IMG/VR virus record: IMGVR_UViG_3300030389_000479
Location: 1-25,518 of that record
Source: a virus
Lineage: Duplodnaviria; Caudoviricetes
Reading direction: 5' to 3' (one strand)
DNA length: 25,518 nt
The notes beneath the pieces were generated by a model. It ran no database searches. It was not told the DNA's origin and saw nothing but the letters and a program-made list of their open reading frames with translations. Within the stretch, counting starts at the first letter, position 1. The number at the start of each line of letters is the position of its first letter. Below, piece by piece: positions 1,606 through 12,631 of this stretch. The position numbers and the translations under genes are program-made.

Positions 1606-1631
1606 AGTCTTCTCCTTTTTAATTATGTTAG

Positions 1632-1722
1632 TCCGAAGAACACATGGCTTTCCAAGCGTCAAGGTCGGCGAAGCCGCCGAAGGGAAACCTTTACGCGAGA
1701 TGGAAAGACCTGTGTTATCGGA
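1632..1722. promoter_or_regulatory. Long imperfect intergenic hairpin with a branched tip of two C-GAA-G mini-hairpins (ssi/Frpo-like element or processing site)
   Basis: Nested pairs TCCGA/TCGGA, AACACA/TGTGTT, CTTTCCA/TGGAAAG, GCGT/ACGC and AAGGT/ACCTT enclose CGGC-GAA-GCCG and CC-GAA-GG. Confidence 0.6.
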
Positions 1723-2073: not shown

Positions 2074-2136
2074 GTTTGTAACTCACTTTCATTGATATTG
2101 ATTTTGTTTCATTTGGTCAGAAGTCGTGAAGCAATC

Positions 2137-2342
2137 TCGCGCCAACACCTAGTCACCCCAGTGGATCACCGAAGGTGATTAGTTAGCGCGATAGCATATA
2201 TTTCGCGAAGCGCAGATTAGACGCTGTCAGGCTGGCATTTAAGGGCATGGCATTGGGAGCCTGACAGCGTGCAACTCCCAGCGAGCGTCTATCAGCTCGC
2301 CGGGAGTTGCGACAATCTTAGATTGCAAATAATAAGATTGTT
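2137..2342. other. Cluster of back-to-back intergenic hairpins (structured RNA or ssDNA element)
   Basis: Stems at 2137-2146/2182-2191, 2165-2170/2174-2179, 2221-2233/2258-2270 (13 bp perfect), 2271-2286/2295-2310 (15 of 16) and 2312-2320/2333-2341. Confidence 0.65.
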
Positions 2343-2437
2343 AGGATGATGAACCCAGCGAAGATCAAGAAACCTGATAAGGTGTCGAGTATCTTCCATG
2401 CAAGGGATTTATTGTTACGATCATATCTTTTGTACAT
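2318..2437 (-). CDS. 39-aa single-pass membrane peptide MYKRYDRNNKSLAWKILDTLSGFLIFAGFIILTILLFAI
   Basis: Hand translation. AGGAG RBS, TAATG overlap with the upstream ORF, basic N-terminus and hydrophobic C-terminal helix. Below the ORF-track cutoff. Confidence 0.7.
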   Translation of the reverse strand: MYKRYDRNNKSLAWKILDTLSGFLIFAGFIILTILLFAI

Positions 2438-3001: not shown

Positions 3002-3739
3002 CTACAGTTCTAGTTCTGTAGATGCTTTAGCTTTGAGACCAAGAGTCTTTTTGATCTCGTTAGCTTTAGCAGTTTGATCTTCCTTTACCTTTGTGGCAAA
3101 GTGTTGCTCAACCTTTTTGATAGTCTCAGGCTTGATGTAGATATCTCCATCATTGAGTTTCATGAACCAAGACTCTATCCAAGCTTGAAACATCTTCATC
3201 TTTACAACTGTCTCTGAGTTGTAGTTGATACGATCTTGCCTGTGATTAGCTTGACGTTCATCGAGTTGATCTTCAGCCAATGCTTTGTTCAGATTGTCCT
3301 GATCTTTCATGATCATCTGCTCAAGTCCAGTGATGGAGTTATAACTATCCATGCCAGTTGAGTTCCATAGATACTTTGGAAGTAATCTTTTGAAGCCATA
3401 CTGTCCGATTGGAACCATCTCGTCAGACTCGATGTACTCGTCATCGCCAATGCGCTTTTTGTGAACATGAGTCTTTTTACCAGCTGGATCAGCATCGATA
3501 TCAATCTGAAGATCATGCGGATTGTACCACTGACCCTCTCCCTCGAAGAACCATTCGATGTGTGCAAGCGACTTACCGATGTCCATGTCGGCGAACTGTT
3601 GATCCAAATCCTTACTCTTGGATTTGTGCATCTTGTCCAGTGATGGAGCGATGAACTTGGTACGAAAACTAGACAATTGAGAAGTACCAAATCTCAAGAG
3701 CTTTTCACATTCAGATACAATTTTAGATAGATTAGACAT
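3002..3739 (-). CDS. Hypothetical protein (245 aa), first gene of the leftward arm
   Basis: Long ORF with a strong AAGGAG RBS. Charged and probably helical. No motif recognised. Confidence 0.85.
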   Translation of the reverse strand: MSNLSKIVSECEKLLRFGTSQLSSFRTKFIAPSLDKMHKSKSKDLDQQFADMDIGKSLAHIEWFFEGEGQWYNPHDLQIDIDADPAGKKTHVHKKRIGDDEYIESDEMVPIGQYGFKRLLPKYLWNSTGMDSYNSITGLEQMIMKDQDNLNKALAEDQLDERQANHRQDRINYNSETVVKMKMFQAWIESWFMKLNDGDIYIKPETIKKVEQHFATKVKEDQTAKANEIKKTLGLKAKASTELEL

Positions 3740-3790
3740 TACTGTCTCCTTTTTAGTTAAGTTAAAATTTTGATAATACGTACACTATTT

Positions 3791-4770
3791 AATCAAAAAC
3801 AATGACCAATCCAGAACGAGAACCGATGGATATATAAAGGATTCCGACAAGGGAAAAACGAGGAGACAAATCTACCTGTCGAGGAGTATTTTCCAAACAG
3901 GTCTTAGGTATGGTTGGTTCGGTAAAAGACCTGTTTCTGTGTCGGAACGGCGAACGAAGTGTCTTGCGCCGATGAGAGAAAATCTCCCAGAATGATCAGA
4001 CGGCACACCAGCAATAGAAGTGCGTAGAAAGAGTACGTTCCGATGTGCCGAGAACCAACAGTATCATTTTCTCCAGTCCTTTTTATATCCACCCCTCTTG
4101 GGGTCTTGATCGGTTTTCGTTATGGGGAAGCGCATAGCGTAAAGCGTTGTTGCGCTGGGCAATTGGTGGGTCTTTTTTTTATTGATTGATAGAGGAGTCG
4201 TTAGGCGTTTGTGACAAAGGCGCTTGCGTCTTTGCTGGGACGCCGACCCTTTTCGTAGCACCTCCTGATCTGCGCCTATCAGCAGATCGAAAGCTGTAGA
4301 GCTTTTTGTGCATGCGTCTATCGGCATGTGCAAAAACCTACAGATTCCATGCGACCACAGAAGTCTTTGTTGGAGGTGCGGAGATTAGGGGAACGGTGGA
4401 TGTTCAGAACTGATACGGACAGAGCCATGTGGATGGTAGGCATGTCGTCTTCATCATGCCTTGCGTCCACATACAGCGGTATCTCGTCTGAATGATCAAA
4501 CTTTTCAGTCTGAAGTTTGTCGACTGCCGTTCGAGTACGGCATCGGCACCATCAGTTGCCCTACTGATTCGTGGTGTGCTGACGAGACAGCACGTCTGAT
4601 ACAGCGCGACAGAGTAACGAGCATGGTTGGTGTATTCTCATGAGCCAGACAGCGTTCTGGGAAAGATGGTTCGCCTCTATCGCGAACTTAAGTCTGTGAC
4701 TTCATCTTTTACAGGTTGTGGCTGGTGAAGTCTGCTGAGAATACAGCGTTCTGTCGATACGCTTTTTGTT
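3791..4770 (+). ncRNA. Candidate large (~1 kb), multi-domain structured non-coding RNA of unknown family
   Basis: No credible ORF. Many nested local and long-range helices, e.g. 3815-3827/4109-4121, 3828-3841/4077-4090, 4258-4265/4372-4379 and 4631-4640/4736-4745. G-U pairs favour the + strand. Confidence 0.6.
4745..4770 (+). terminator. Possible weak intrinsic terminator closing the structured region
   Basis: AGCGT-tctgtcgat-ACGCT followed by TTTTGTT. Confidence 0.35.
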
Positions 4771-4788
4771 GAATATGAAATTAATGTA

Positions 4789-4818
4789 TTGACAAGTAGA
4801 CAGAAAATACGGCACAGT
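4789..4818 (+). promoter_or_regulatory. Candidate promoter TTGACA-N18-CACAGT with AT-rich upstream element, before the terminase small subunit
   Basis: Perfect -35 at 4789-4794 and a degenerate -10 at 4813-4818. The ATG at 4826 has no SD. Confidence 0.5.
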
Positions 4819-4825
4819 TGACGGC

Positions 4826-5194
4826 ATGACACTTGTGAAGATAACCGAGAAACAGAAGAAGTTGGTTGATACGTTAGTAGCAAAAGGATGCAGTATCAAA
4901 CAAGCAAGTGATGAAGCTGGATACGCAAAGGGTGAATCAGGCAGAGTAACTGCTAGCAAGGCTTTGAGAACACCACATGTGCAACAGTACATGATGCAAG
5001 CAATAGCAGACAACATGAGTATAAATGCTACGAAAGCGTTGAATAAGATAGTACAGCTATCAAGCAATGCTAAGTCTGAATACGTTAGCCTTGAAGCTAG
5101 TAAAGATTTGCTTGATCGTGCTGGGTTTAAAGCACCAGATAAGGTGATGCATAGCCATGTTGGTAATGTCAATGTAAAGATTGATTTGTCTTGA
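4826..5194 (+). CDS. terS: Terminase small subunit
   Basis: N-terminal HTH pattern (TEKQKKLVDTLVAKGCSIKQASDEAGY...ASKALRTPHV), the ASKDLLDRAG motif, and position upstream of terL. Confidence 0.75.
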   Translation: MTLVKITEKQKKLVDTLVAKGCSIKQASDEAGYAKGESGRVTASKALRTPHVQQYMMQAIADNMSINATKALNKIVQLSSNAKSEYVSLEASKDLLDRAGFKAPDKVMHSHVGNVNVKIDLS

Positions 5195-6560: not shown

Positions 6561-8067
6561 GTACAAGCCTGATGGCAATGTTCTAAAAAGTTTTATGAAG
6601 GATGATAGTTTTTTTCGTGGCATCCGTGGTCCAGTTGGTTCTGGTAAATCTGTTGGATGCTGTGTTGAGTTATTCCGAAGAGCATTAGAACAGAAACCAA
6701 ATGATGATGGAGTTCGGAAATCTCGATGGGCTGTTATCCGAAACACCAATCCCCAGCTAAGAACCACAACAATCAAGACATGGTTAGACTGGTTTCCAGA
6801 ATCAGACTGGGGTAATTTTCACTGGTCTGTTCCTTACACTCACCACATCAAAGTAAATGATCTTGACCTCGAAGTAATTTTTTTAGCGTTAGATAGACCA
6901 GAAGATGTAAAGAAGTTGTTGTCATTAGAACTTACTGGGATATGGATTAACGAAGCAAGAGAAATACCAAAGAGTATAGTTGATGCGTGTACTATGCGTG
7001 TTGGTAGATATCCAAGTATGCGAGAGGGTGGTGCTAGTTGGTCTGGTGTTATCTGTGATACTAACGCACCAGAAGAAGATCATTGGTGGGCTATAATGTC
7101 AGGTGAAGTTCCTATCCCTGATCACATTCCTCGAGAGCAAGCAACCATGTTAGTAAAGCCTGACAACTGGAAATTTTTTGCACAGCCTCCAGCCATGAAA
7201 GAACATATTAATGATAGAAAAGAAGTTACTTCTTATTCTCTGAATAAAGATGCAGAGAACCGAAAAAATATTTTAGAAACATATTATCCTAATCTGATAA
7301 GAGGTAAGACTAAGAACTGGATAGATGTTTATGTAATGAATAGGTTGGGATTGATTCAGGAAGGCAAACCAGTTTATCCTGACTTTCTTTCTGAAACTCA
7401 TGTAGCTGATGAAGAGATACCAGTTGCTGTTGGTATACCACTATATGTTGGGATTGACTTTGGCTTGACTCCTTCTGCTGTTTTTGGTCAGAAGGTAAGA
7501 GGTCGATGGTTGGTTCAAGCTGAGATTGTTGCTGTTGATATGGGTGTAGTTCGTTTTGCTGAGTTACTGCGACAAGAGATTGCGACACGATTCAATGGTC
7601 TTGATGTTTATATTTATGGTGATCCAGCTGGTGACTTCCGAGCGCAAACAGATGAATCAACTCCTTTTCAAATATTAAGAGGAGCTGGATTGAAAGCTGT
7701 GCCAGCTCCCAGTAATAGTGTTGACCTTAGATTGGAATCTGTTTCTTCTCAACTAACTAAGATGGCAGAGGGATTGCCAGCCTTTATGATTGATAGAAGA
7801 TGCGCTACATTAATCAAAGGTTTTCAAGGTGGTTATTGCTATAGACGTATGCAAGTATCTGGAGAAAGATATGATGATAAACCTGAGAAAAATATGTACT
7901 CTCATATCCATGATGCCTTGCAATATATGATGCTTGGTGCTGGTGAAGGACGCAGTTTGATGTCTGGACAGAAACCAGTCAAAGCTTTCAACGCAAGAAA
8001 AGGCTTTGATATTTTTAGAAGATCGCCTAATAATAAGAAAAGTAGCTCATTTTGGAATAGACTATAA
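6547..8067 (+). CDS. terL: Terminase large subunit
   Basis: Walker A GPVGSGKS, Walker B IWINEARE, motif III CDTNAP, and RNase H-like nuclease residues GIDFGLTP and HIHDALQY. GTG start. Confidence 0.95.
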   Translation: MTEFKYKPDGNVLKSFMKDDSFFRGIRGPVGSGKSVGCCVELFRRALEQKPNDDGVRKSRWAVIRNTNPQLRTTTIKTWLDWFPESDWGNFHWSVPYTHHIKVNDLDLEVIFLALDRPEDVKKLLSLELTGIWINEAREIPKSIVDACTMRVGRYPSMREGGASWSGVICDTNAPEEDHWWAIMSGEVPIPDHIPREQATMLVKPDNWKFFAQPPAMKEHINDRKEVTSYSLNKDAENRKNILETYYPNLIRGKTKNWIDVYVMNRLGLIQEGKPVYPDFLSETHVADEEIPVAVGIPLYVGIDFGLTPSAVFGQKVRGRWLVQAEIVAVDMGVVRFAELLRQEIATRFNGLDVYIYGDPAGDFRAQTDESTPFQILRGAGLKAVPAPSNSVDLRLESVSSQLTKMAEGLPAFMIDRRCATLIKGFQGGYCYRRMQVSGERYDDKPEKNMYSHIHDALQYMMLGAGEGRSLMSGQKPVKAFNARKGFDIFRRSPNNKKSSSFWNRL

Positions 8068-11540: not shown

Positions 11541-12356
11541 ATGGCAAACACTATTGATACAGCCTTTATTAAGCAGTTCGAATCTGAAGTTCACCTTGCT
11601 TATCAGCGTATGGGTTCTAAGCTACGGAACACTGTGCGTATGGCAAACAATGTGACTGGTAGCGTTGTACGCTTCCAGAAGATTGGAACTGGTAGTGCGA
11701 GTACCAAGTCCAGAAATGGTCTTGTGACTCCAATGGAATTAGCACATACAACTGTTGAGGCGACTATGAGTGACTTCTATGCCGCCGAATATATCGACAA
11801 GTTGGATGAGCTAAAAATAAATATCAATGAAAGACAAGCAGTTGCTACTTCAGCGGCGGCGGCTCTTGGTCGTAAGACTGATGAGATACTCTATACAGCA
11901 ATGGATAGTGGTGCTAACTCAACTCAGATTCACGATACAAACAGTGCGCTTGGAAAAGCTGACTTGTTAACATTGTTCGAAACCTTCGGTACTGCAAACA
12001 TCCCTGAGGATGGTGGTAGATATCTTGCGATGCATCCAAAGGGTTTTGCTGATCTGTTTAACATAACAGAATTTGCATCATCTGATTTTGTTGGTGAGCA
12101 GAATCTTCCATTTGCTGGTGGTATGACAATGAAGTCTTTCTTAGGATTTCAAATCTTTTCAACTGCGGCTATCACAGCTGGAAAGAATATGGCTTACCAT
12201 ACAACATCTGTTGGTCTCGGTATTAACTCTGATGTTCAAACTGAACTTAACTATGTTCCAGAGAGAGCGTCACATCTTGCAACATCTATGATGTCTATGG
12301 GTGCTACTGTCATTGATGACAATGGTATCTATGAAGTCTTAGATAATAACACATAG
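11541..12356 (+). CDS. Major capsid protein (271 aa)
   Basis: MANTIDTAFIKQFESEVHLAYQRMGSKLRNTVR, YIDKLDELK and AAAALGRKTDEI motifs. GGAG before the ATG at 11541. Canonical gene position. Confidence 0.9.
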   Translation: MANTIDTAFIKQFESEVHLAYQRMGSKLRNTVRMANNVTGSVVRFQKIGTGSASTKSRNGLVTPMELAHTTVEATMSDFYAAEYIDKLDELKININERQAVATSAAAALGRKTDEILYTAMDSGANSTQIHDTNSALGKADLLTLFETFGTANIPEDGGRYLAMHPKGFADLFNITEFASSDFVGEQNLPFAGGMTMKSFLGFQIFSTAAITAGKNMAYHTTSVGLGINSDVQTELNYVPERASHLATSMMSMGATVIDDNGIYEVLDNNT

Positions 12357-12367
12357 GGGGTATTGAC

Positions 12368-12631
12368 ATGGCTTATAGTGCTAGTGGATTATCTCGATTA
12401 GCTGGTGCATCTAATCTTAACTTGTGGGCGTATACAACTACAGACGCTATTGGTACTGTAAATACCGCTGGTTATTTTAATGATGCCGCGAACATGCTAG
12501 CTGTTCGAGATGTTATTATGGTTGCTGATACAAACACTCCTACGACTCACTTTGTGACTGTTTTGTCAAACACTGGAACTGTAGTAGATGTATCTGATGG
12601 TACAGCTATTGCTGAAACAGACGGCGACTAA
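12368..12631 (+). CDS. Small virion structural protein (possible capsid decoration protein)
   Basis: 87 aa, Ala/Thr/Asp-rich, directly after the capsid gene with a GGGGG RBS. Confidence 0.65.
   Translation: MAYSASGLSRLAGASNLNLWAYTTTDAIGTVNTAGYFNDAANMLAVRDVIMVADTNTPTTHFVTVLSNTGTVVDVSDGTAIAETDGD

What the first reader, a model, noticed from the sequence alone, without database searches (positions are those of the whole stretch)
3791..4770. ~1-kb ornate structured element between the divergent early and late arms: candidate undescribed large phage ncRNA
Seen: in an otherwise gene-packed genome, about 1.08 kb lacks a credible ORF and is GC-richer (spot count 30/60 at 4261-4320 versus 17/60 at 7261-7320). 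Domain 1 (3791-4187) is closed by AATCAA/TTGATT, ACCAAT/ATTGGT, AACGAGAACCGAT/ATCGGTTTTCGTT (3815-3827/4109-4121) and GGATATATAAAGGA/TCCTTTTTATATCC (3828-3841/4077-4090). Its inner helices are TTCCGACA/TGTCGGAA, AAACAGGTCTT/AAGACCTGTTT, CGGCACA/TGTGCCG and ACCCC/GGGGT. Domain 2 (~4198-4620) has GCACCTCC/GGAGGTGC, GATCTGC/GCAGATC, TTTTTGTGCATGC/GCATGTGCAAAAA, GAACGGTGG/CTGCCGTTC, ATGTGGATG/CGTCCACAT and AGGCATG/CATGCCT. Domain 3 is closed by TGTATTCTCA/TGAGAATACA (4631-4640/4736-4745) around three hairpins. Non-canonical pairs are repeatedly G-U on the + strand (A-C on the minus), implying selection on a single-stranded + strand molecule. Known: phages carry large ncRNAs (GOLLD, ROOL), and phi29 uses a packaging RNA. 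Inference: one or two large RNAs transcribed toward terS, possibly acting in packaging, as a protein scaffold or sponge, or in anti-defence. I cannot match it to a family.
Basis: partly seen in the sequence, partly recalled or inferred. Interest (0 to 1): 0.9.

Follow-up and report, generated by a model that had tools for sequence, protein, structure and literature searches.

The report
Folded single-strand DNA switch, marine phage
A gene-free kilobase in a marine tailed phage is conserved as an elaborate one-strand fold that is likely DNA rather than RNA, and in many relatives it folds back onto the first early gene like a predicted single-strand promoter, which would mean these double-stranded phages pass through a single-stranded stage so far known from conjugative plasmids.

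Summary
The structure is real. All 15 helices exist, z is about -9.5, helices are rewritten with pairing kept across relatives, and mismatches point to the + strand. No Rfam family matches. But it looks like folded single-stranded DNA, not a large RNA. In 74 non-redundant terS-upstream intervals the hairpin loops are DNA-type (C-G-closed triloops 54 vs 12 shuffled, cGNAg 13 vs 0.9, GNRA 4 vs 2, cUUCGg 0). In 46 of 74 the + strand carries an imperfect, frame-broken sense copy of the leftward gene's promoter, RBS and first codons (G·T on + 421, on - 62), often with a -10 box in a bubble: the layout of plasmid Frpo single-strand promoters, with the + strand as template. The cultured Pelagibacter phage Hodr has it, plus ArdC, RecE and SSB. 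The window's own subfamily is a larger, branched, mosaic version with a conserved four-GG loop, no detectable gene copy and only a tentative promoter. No RNA data were available, so an RNA role for its domains is not excluded. How a tailed phage exposes this strand is open.

The parts
3002..3739 (-). First early gene, 245 aa, unknown function; predicted target of the folded-strand promoter
   Evidence: ORF; homologs in 27 loci; no PHROG, Pfam, Atlas or fold match
3745..3769 (-). Shine-Dalgarno and U-rich leader of the first early gene
   Evidence: sequence; similar leaders at 1586-1630 (D2)
3791..4187 (+). Domain 1: branched fold whose closing helices reach about 50 nt from the early start codon; candidate promoter module
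3815..4121 (+). Covarying long-range helices 3815-3827/4109-4121 and 3828-3841/4077-4090
   Evidence: five sequence versions, all paired; two-sided changes at columns 80-88
3859..3886 (+). Purine-rich internal loop CGAGGAG...CGAGGAG (tandem G·A type; likeness to the DNA GGA zipper is recalled)
   Evidence: CGAGGA in 27 of 74 intervals on +, 2 on -
3895..3936 (+). Hairpin whose loop holds four GG tracts (3907-3922): predicted two-tier G-quadruplex on a duplex
   Evidence: stem rewritten while the four GG tracts persist; found in 9 of 74 intervals and 19 of 24 window-family rows, several of them truncated
4106..4165 (+). Tentative folded-strand promoter top strand: -35-like TTGATC 4106-4111, branch hairpin 4129-4156, -10-like CAATTG 4160-4165 (invariant GGCAA, as in GGCACAGT of the terS promoter)
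   Evidence: conservation; not better than shuffles under a sigma-70 matrix (p 0.90)
4198..4620 (+). Domain 2: multi-branch fold with invariant unpaired words and two hairpins with (G)YCTATCR loops (4274-4281, 4316-4323)
4603..4768 (+). Domain 3: closed fold with a CTCTATC loop, replaced by a different closed fold in other members and absent in L014; followed by a T run
4789..4825 (+). Leaderless late promoter TTGACA-18-CACAGT-7-ATG for terS
   Evidence: conserved in window-family and sister loci
4826..5194 (+). Terminase small subunit, start of the late arm
   Evidence: PHROG 2538 E 1.8e-12; PF03592
1630..1720 (+). Second conserved long hairpin upstream of an early gene, capped by two C(GAA)G mini-hairpins
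   Evidence: 16 distinct sequences, covarying stem; G·T bias neutral, 13 vs 14
2074..2317 (+). Third structured early intergenic region with C(GAA)G triloops, a GTCTATCA loop and a G-tract loop
   Evidence: z -5.8 on +, -10.3 on - in 200-nt RNA windows; 11 sequences

Best explanation
The interval is an ORF-free, covarying + strand fold between the divergent early and late arms of a Hodr-like marine podovirus, and it is likely a single-stranded-DNA control region that would form when the + strand is exposed and would let host RNA polymerase transcribe the leftward early genes from that strand. Shown: the fold, its strand, its DNA-type loops, and in 46 of 74 relatives a fold-back onto the template of the first early gene. 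Inferred: the distal arm acts as a surrogate non-template strand, offering a -10 box in a bubble that the double-stranded form lacks and re-annealing behind the polymerase so that the RBS and start of the mRNA are released. The window's subfamily is a larger branched version whose promoter boxes are only tentative; its extra modules (four-GG loop, CTATC loops, tandem G·A loops) would be DNA docking or priming signals for conversion back to double strand. The most economical source of single strand is resection or strand loss at the first-entering genome end: if packaging starts near terS and runs rightward, this interval and the early arm lie at that end, with the + strand's 3' end leading (inferred; termini not determined).
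For: Fold-back: the 50 nt upstream of the left start codon find their complement in their own interval (top 4 of 74) in 54 of 74, the first 50 coding nt in 46 of 74, a terS-proximal control in 5 of 74; median extent -68 to +115, 43 of 46 past +40; confined to the interval (21% of windows score >=50 vs 0-0.4% in early and late arms, 48 loci). Mismatches in these duplexes: G·T on + 421 vs on - 62 (42 vs 2 sequences), G·A 314 vs C·T 118, G·G 107 vs C·C 11; foreign-pair baselines 1.9, 1.0, 2.0. Loops in perfect hairpins, stem >=5, 74 intervals: 433 vs 246 shuffled, cNNNg 54 vs 12, cGNAg 13 vs 0.9, sCNNGs 11 vs 1, GNRA 4 vs 2, GNYA 8 vs 1.2, cUUCGg 0. Controls: rRNA triloops 1 of 35 and GNRA 15 vs 1.9 at stem >=3; RNase P/tmRNA triloops 2 of 32, GNRA 6 of 12 tetraloops; window family 9 of 41 triloops, no GNRA among 9 tetraloops; F leading region triloops 8 of 30. 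d(GNA) and d(cCNNGg)/d(gCNNGc) are DNA-stable loops (PMC3201870, PMC13037366, passages). Top-strand sigma-70 score beats the double-stranded version in 44 of 68; TATAAT, GATAAT, CATAAT, TAAAAT sit in bubbles about 30-50 nt before the start codon in many loci. Hodr: TTGTTA-16-TATATT on the top strand, gene copy -67 to +147, ArdC, RecE-like exonuclease, SSB and RusA in its early arm.
Against: The window's own subfamily shows no gene copy (rank 29 of 73; ranks 32-62 for five of six members at arm 12-62) and its best promoter score is no better than shuffles. DNA folding z is the same on both strands. The sigma-70 matrix was ad hoc, 24 of 68 loci go the other way, and the loci are related, so p-values overstate. 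RNA and ssDNA control sets are small (6.4 kb and 2.6 kb), one RNase P row has unverified orientation, and F's template strand showed no G·T bias overall (4 vs 6; 5 vs 2 in two Frpo stems). ArdC was found in only 8 loci, 5 of 71 with long upstream arms. T runs follow helices at 4173-4181 and 4764-4768, as after RNA terminators. No single-stranded stage is documented for these phages and no expression data were available.
Confidence: 0.6

Rival explanations
1. One to three + strand non-coding RNAs, at least for the window-family domains 2 and 3, inserted beside whatever the relatives' fold-back does.
For: Ornate multi-branch fold with invariant unpaired words; RNA z -9.5 on + vs -6.1 on -; helices followed by T runs; the window family lacks the gene copy; GNRA mildly enriched at short stems (36 vs 24 at stem >=3, 15 vs 8 at >=4); GOLLD and ROOL are phage-borne precedents (PMC12286853, passages).
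Against: No conserved + strand promoter upstream of 3791 (alignment); no Rfam match; no GNRA or UUCG loops in window-family hairpins; two-base C-G-closed loops and triloops dominate; the interval is swapped wholesale between phages with identical terS while small motifs recur; the same loop motifs occur in the other early intergenic regions.
Confidence: 0.2
2. A single-stranded-DNA structure that serves only replication or packaging: a single-strand origin or primosome site for complementary-strand synthesis during rolling-circle replication, or a G-quadruplex packaging signal read by terminase, with no mRNA promoter role.
For: All the DNA-type evidence above; position next to terS; 43 of 74 intervals carry a G5+-N3-9-G5+ pair within 90 nt of the terS start, none a C version, and none of these has the TTGAC-type terS promoter, while the window family has a four-GG loop instead; mini-hairpins occur at G4 phage and ssiA priming sites (PMC13037366, passages); Frpo can also make primers (PMC12672017, passages).
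Against: The long duplex is anchored at the RBS and coding start of the first early gene, not at terS, and carries -10 boxes at mRNA-start distance; a priming signal has no reason to copy 100 nt of a gene.
Confidence: 0.15
3. The pairing works on the minus strand (a long 5' leader that hides the RBS of the first early gene) or as a cruciform or inverted repeat in double-stranded DNA.
For: Perfect helices are strand-symmetric; DNA z is equal on both strands; CTTCGG occurs 17 times on - vs 7.8 expected; region 2074-2317 folds better on - as RNA.
Against: G·T 421 on + vs 62 on -; the minus-strand CTTCGG words are the complement of + strand C(GAA)G triloops, and cUUCGg hairpins with stem >=5 number 0 on both strands; imperfect, bulged kilobase folds would not extrude from duplex DNA (inference).
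Confidence: 0.05

Closest known systems
Frpo/ssi single-stranded DNA promoters of F, ColIb-P9 and pESBL leading regions (PMC11541004, PMC12672017, passages)
   Same: Template strand folds into a duplex upstream of the RBS, with promoter boxes on the distal arm; linked genes include anti-restriction (ArdC) and SSB in Hodr; triloop-rich hairpins as in F.
   Different: Found in tailed podoviruses, not conjugative elements; in 43 of 46 fold-back loci the duplex runs more than 40 nt into the coding sequence, whereas the two F Frpo stems stop at -45; up to 1.3 kb, branched, mosaic, with G-quadruplex-type modules; no sequence likeness tested.
Single-strand origins and priming signals (phage G4 origin, RSF1010 ssiA; PMC13037366, passages; M13 and sso recalled)
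   Same: GCGNAGC/CCGNAGG mini-hairpins enriched on + (46 vs 12 on -, 18.9 shuffled).
   Different: Much larger, anchored on a gene start; no primase site tested.
N4 virion RNA polymerase hairpin promoters (PMC13037366, passages)
   Same: GNA-capped DNA hairpins read on the template strand in a podovirus.
   Different: N4 hairpins are short and read by a 3,500-aa virion enzyme; no RNA polymerase was detected in the window's large virion proteins, and the boxes here are sigma-70-like.
GOLLD, ROOL, OLE ornate RNAs (PMC12286853, passages) and phi29 pRNA (recalled)
   Same: Large, covarying, multi-branch, phage-borne; next to packaging genes like pRNA.
   Different: No Rfam match, no tRNA neighbours, no RNA-type loops, no universally conserved core across the lineage.

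Membership tests
Frpo-type ssDNA promoter | Template strand folds into a long duplex just upstream of the gene it drives | tested here: met
   54 of 74 intervals; window: only a short closing helix at -80 to -48
Frpo-type ssDNA promoter | -35 and -10 boxes on the distal arm, absent or misplaced in the double-stranded form | tested here: inconclusive
   top beats ds in 44 of 68 with an ad hoc matrix; clear in Hodr, L039, L034, L002; not significant in the window
Frpo-type ssDNA promoter | Folding strand is the template strand | tested here: met
   G·T 421 on + vs 62 on -; window family 56 vs 20
Frpo-type ssDNA promoter | Active on single-stranded, silent on double-stranded DNA | not testable with these tools
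   needs in vitro transcription
Frpo-type ssDNA promoter | Lies in the leading region of a conjugative element | tested here: not met
   context is a podovirus with terminase, portal, capsid and tail genes
GOLLD/ROOL/OLE or any Rfam RNA family | Covariance-model match at the gathering score | tested here: not met
   0 matches in the window; best E 0.13 at relaxed threshold; GOLLD 0 (controls also silent)
Large structured ncRNA in general | Covarying secondary structure on one strand | tested here: met
Large structured ncRNA in general | RNA-type capping loops (GNRA, UNCG) | tested here: not met
Large structured ncRNA in general | A discrete transcript | not testable with these tools
   no RNA holder listed
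Single-strand origin / primosome assembly site | Primer synthesis on the folded strand | not testable with these tools
   motif likeness only (GTGAGCG in 5 of 74, not in the window)
HTVC010P-type pelagiphages | Shares the element with HTVC010P | tested here: not met
   HTVC010P's divergent region is AT-rich with no strong fold-back; nearest isolate is Hodr, terL 64%, terS 58%

The most novel reading that the evidence does not exclude
A widespread lineage of marine tailed phages delivers or converts the first-entering part of its genome to a single strand (for example through the host's pilus and competence channel, or by deliberate strand removal) and runs its earliest programme from a kilobase natural DNA fold, with single-strand promoters, surrogate non-template strands and quadruplex-duplex modules, before the duplex is restored.
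Probability: 0.25. Interest if true: 0.95.

Novelty: new variant of a known kind. Interest (0 to 1): 0.82.

Why it matters
Tailed phages are taken to enter and act as double-stranded DNA, and single-strand promoters have been shown only for conjugative plasmids in the papers read here. A conserved fold-back on the template strand of the first early gene across a large marine lineage (about 1,800 stored IMG/VR stretches match the terS patterns) points to an unrecognised single-stranded phase, and one member, Hodr, is cultured on Pelagibacter HTCC1062, so the idea can be tested directly. It also gives ncRNA screens a practical check: covariation with G·U bias does not prove RNA, while loop types and fold-back onto a gene's template can flag DNA.

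Tried and rejected
Rfam: nothing at gathering score, best E 0.13; no tRNA or tmRNA. blastn of the element against 50,697 GenBank phages: one 40-nt chance match. Expression: no RNA holder listed; the single run X1, contigs of unknown kind, covered patches on both sides and inside and says nothing on expression. The metagenome scan gave 27 hits, 19 with terS, none a short element-only contig: uninformative. RNAalifold paired the terS promoter with internal invariant words, suggesting a dual-use promoter; rejected, because own-versus-foreign duplex energies were unremarkable (window ranks 17 and 25 of 67) and pair probabilities were 0.000. A gene copy in the window itself: not found. The 245-aa early protein: five close homologs only, no Atlas hit, model pLDDT 68, no fold match at E<=0.001 in PDB or BFVD. 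Virion proteins of 994 and 1154 aa: no PDB relative that suggests a helicase, nuclease or polymerase. Host: 8 GTDB hits lie in MAGs of mixed taxa, probably binned phage contigs, so no host is assigned. Cultured phages with more distant terminases (MEP301, Mwe-JY08, VA-RY-3) and HTVC010P/011P show no strong fold-back in the stretches scanned (best window scores 50-56, against 69-105 in Hodr). Genome ends were not determined; contig ends near terS were noticed but not tested. Rows dropped: 33 of 164 terS loci lacked enough upstream sequence or a left ORF; 6 of 74 were left out of the promoter score; L023 was left out of the protein alignment. No earlier notes on this genome or its sequence relatives.

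Full report
Context. The window is a 25.5-kb fragment of a podovirus: terS 4826, terL 6547, head-tail connector 8375, major capsid 11526 and tail genes on +, small early genes on -. The nearest annotated isolate is Pelagibacter phage EXVC031P Hodr (terL 64%, terS 58%), which has the same divergent layout. The host of the window's phage is not known.

Observation. All 15 named helices are present. The interval is ORF-free and GC-richer and folds far better than shuffles on both strands, as RNA and as DNA (z -6.1 to -9.9, 20 shuffles each), so energy alone separates neither strand nor chemistry. Thirteen close relatives align across it: 31 of 129 consensus pairs show two-sided changes, several helices are rewritten with pairing kept, and whole hairpins are deleted at their boundaries. 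Rfam gives nothing.

The element is a mosaic. Among 80 terS loci, phages with 100% identical terS share nothing with 3769-4764. From 164 terS-bearing sequences (window, Hodr), 131 had an upstream leftward gene with an RBS, and these collapsed to 74 non-redundant intervals of about 270-1300 nt. In the window's group terS has a leaderless promoter, TTGACA-18-CACAGT-7-ATG, so the element is not needed as a terS leader.

DNA or RNA. Perfect hairpins are strand-symmetric, so their loops report strand and chemistry. With stems of 5 or more pairs the 74 intervals hold 433 hairpins against 246 in shuffles; C-G-closed triloops 54 vs 12, cGNAg 13 vs 0.9 on + (4 vs 0.4 on -), s[CNNG]s 11 vs 1, GNRA 4 vs 2, GNYA 8 vs 1.2, cUUCGg 0. 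E. coli rRNA gives 1 triloop in 35 hairpins and GNRA 15 vs 1.9 at stems of 3 or more; four RNase P RNAs and one tmRNA give 2 triloops in 32 and 6 GNRA among 12 tetraloops, while ten window-family intervals give 9 triloops in 41 and no GNRA among 9 tetraloops. The F plasmid leading-region intergenic DNA gives 8 triloops in 30. d(GNA) triloops with a C-G closing pair and the d(cGNNAg), d(cCNNGg), d(gCNNGc) tetraloops are DNA-stable motifs, and the RNA version of the GCGAAAGC mini-hairpin melts at 39 C against 76.5 C for DNA (PMC3201870 and PMC13037366, passages). Against this: GNRA is mildly enriched at short stems (36 vs 24), the controls are small, one RNase P row has unverified orientation, and the intervals are related.

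Fold-back onto the first early gene. The 50 nt upstream of the leftward start codon find their complement in their own interval (top 4 of 74) in 54 of 74 cases, the first 50 coding nt in 46 of 74, and a terS-proximal control in 5 of 74. In those 46 the + strand carries an imperfect, indel-ridden sense copy of the gene's 5' region, median -68 to +115, 43 extending past +40; in Hodr it runs from -67 to +147, up to the terS start. The signal is confined to this interval. Mismatches are G·T on + 421 vs on - 62, G·A 314 vs C·T 118, G·G 107 vs C·C 11, against foreign-pair ratios of 1.9, 1.0 and 2.0; this order matches DNA mismatch stability as I recall it. The folded molecule therefore contains the template strand of a coding sequence. 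On the distal arm, -10-like words often sit in bubbles 30-50 nt before the start codon, and an ad hoc sigma-70 score is higher on the distal arm than on the double-stranded site in 44 of 68 loci. In a sister group (L009, L016, L020, L023, L024, L028) a TAnnnT word lies 6 nt before a conserved TCGTGTG-like helix whose partner is the early leader. This is the described layout of Frpo promoters (PMC11541004, PMC12672017, passages), except that two F stems stop at -45. Hodr's early arm encodes ArdC, a RecE-like exonuclease, SSB and RusA; ArdC was found in 8 loci and RecE in 34. That ArdC binds single-stranded DNA is recalled.

The window itself. Its subfamily has no detectable gene copy (rank 29 of 73). 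Domain 1 is closed by helices reaching about 50 nt from the early start codon, kept in shifting registers with an invariant GGCAA at the junction. A promoter TTGATC / branch / CAATTG would mirror the terS promoter's spacing and start on an A, but it scores no better than shuffles, so it is tentative. Domain 1 holds a hairpin whose stem is rewritten while four GG tracts persist in the loop, a predicted two-tier quadruplex on a duplex; 43 of 74 other intervals have instead a pair of long G tracts just before terS, never a C pair. CTATC-loop hairpins recur three times in the element and once at 2285. Two further early intergenic regions carry C(GAA)G mini-hairpins on +, though the 1630-1720 stem shows no G·T bias. 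A tempting re-pairing of the terS promoter with internal words failed two controls.

Mechanism. Shown: a + strand fold under selection, DNA-type loops, fold-back onto the early gene in most relatives. Inferred: the fold forms on single-stranded + DNA, host polymerase starts in it and runs leftward, and the distal arm displaces the mRNA start; other modules recruit proteins or prime the second strand. Inferred and untested: the source of single strand. If packaging starts near terS and runs rightward, the last-packaged, first-ejected end carries this interval and the early arm with the + strand's 3' end leading (general headful logic, recalled), so host resection or single-strand uptake would both expose the right strand; rolling-circle replication is a further option. 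Termini were not determined; for the related HTVC010P-type Skadi phages a 125-bp terminal repeat and lambda-like rolling-circle replication are reported (PMC10504331, passages), but HTVC010P lacks this fold.

Literature. Nine searches listed no paper on Hodr, on this element, or on single-strand promoters in tailed phages; I saw listings and abstract starts for these and passages of six papers (PMC11541004, PMC13037366, PMC10504331, PMC12672017, PMC3201870, PMC12286853), no supplements, and the library lacks most subscription journals. Unchecked notes of this scan report Frpo-like hairpins in two Bacteroidota prophages; they are leads, read after my own analysis.

Verdict. Real and unusual; probably a folded single-stranded-DNA control region (about 0.75 for DNA overall, 0.6 with the promoter role), RNA about 0.2. 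A new variant of the Frpo kind in a new setting, testable in a cultured phage.

Noticed in passing
43 of 74 intervals, e.g. L047, L069, L140, within 90 nt upstream of the terS start: A pair of G5-G8 tracts separated by 3-9 nt on the + strand, never as C tracts, and never together with the TTGAC-type terS promoter; possible G-quadruplex, packaging signal or RBS.
   Followed up: partly
window 2318-2437 (-): Unlisted 39-codon ORF with a hydrophobic C-terminal half, directly after the 54-aa ORF; read by eye.
   Followed up: no
window 1630-1720: Conserved long hairpin with two C(GAA)G mini-hairpins just upstream of an early gene's RBS, in 16 distinct sequences from several interval families.
   Followed up: partly
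window 2074-2317: Structured intergenic region sharing the GTCTATCA loop with the main element and a loop with four G tracts; mosaic among relatives.
   Followed up: partly
window 4789-4828: terS appears to be leaderless, with a -10 of the form CAnnnT conserved across the group.
   Followed up: partly
L197, first leftward gene, 437 nt upstream of terS: ArdC-like anti-restriction gene is the first gene of the early arm.
   Followed up: no
L081 (Hodr) reverse strand, about 11990-12530: The sense copy of the first early gene contains the terS promoter TTGACA-17-TATACT within it.
   Followed up: partly
window 4157-4169 with 4549-4561: Alternative 13-pair helix predicted with RNA parameters (p 1.0), competing with the domain-1 closing helix; possible switch.
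   Followed up: no
L126 and L128, 2-6 kb upstream of terS: Early arm of close relatives has a RecE-like exonuclease (tblastn) followed by genes that look like an annealing protein, SSB and a junction resolvase (by eye, recalled likeness).
   Followed up: no
L012, L032, L052, L060, L157, L174: Six contigs begin within about 70 nt of the terS start codon; could mark a genome end or only assembly breaks.
   Followed up: no
phages collection: ArdC homologs in 57 phage records, including HTVC011P and Roseobacter phage CRP-804 at the record's left end and the phiCbK group.
   Followed up: partly
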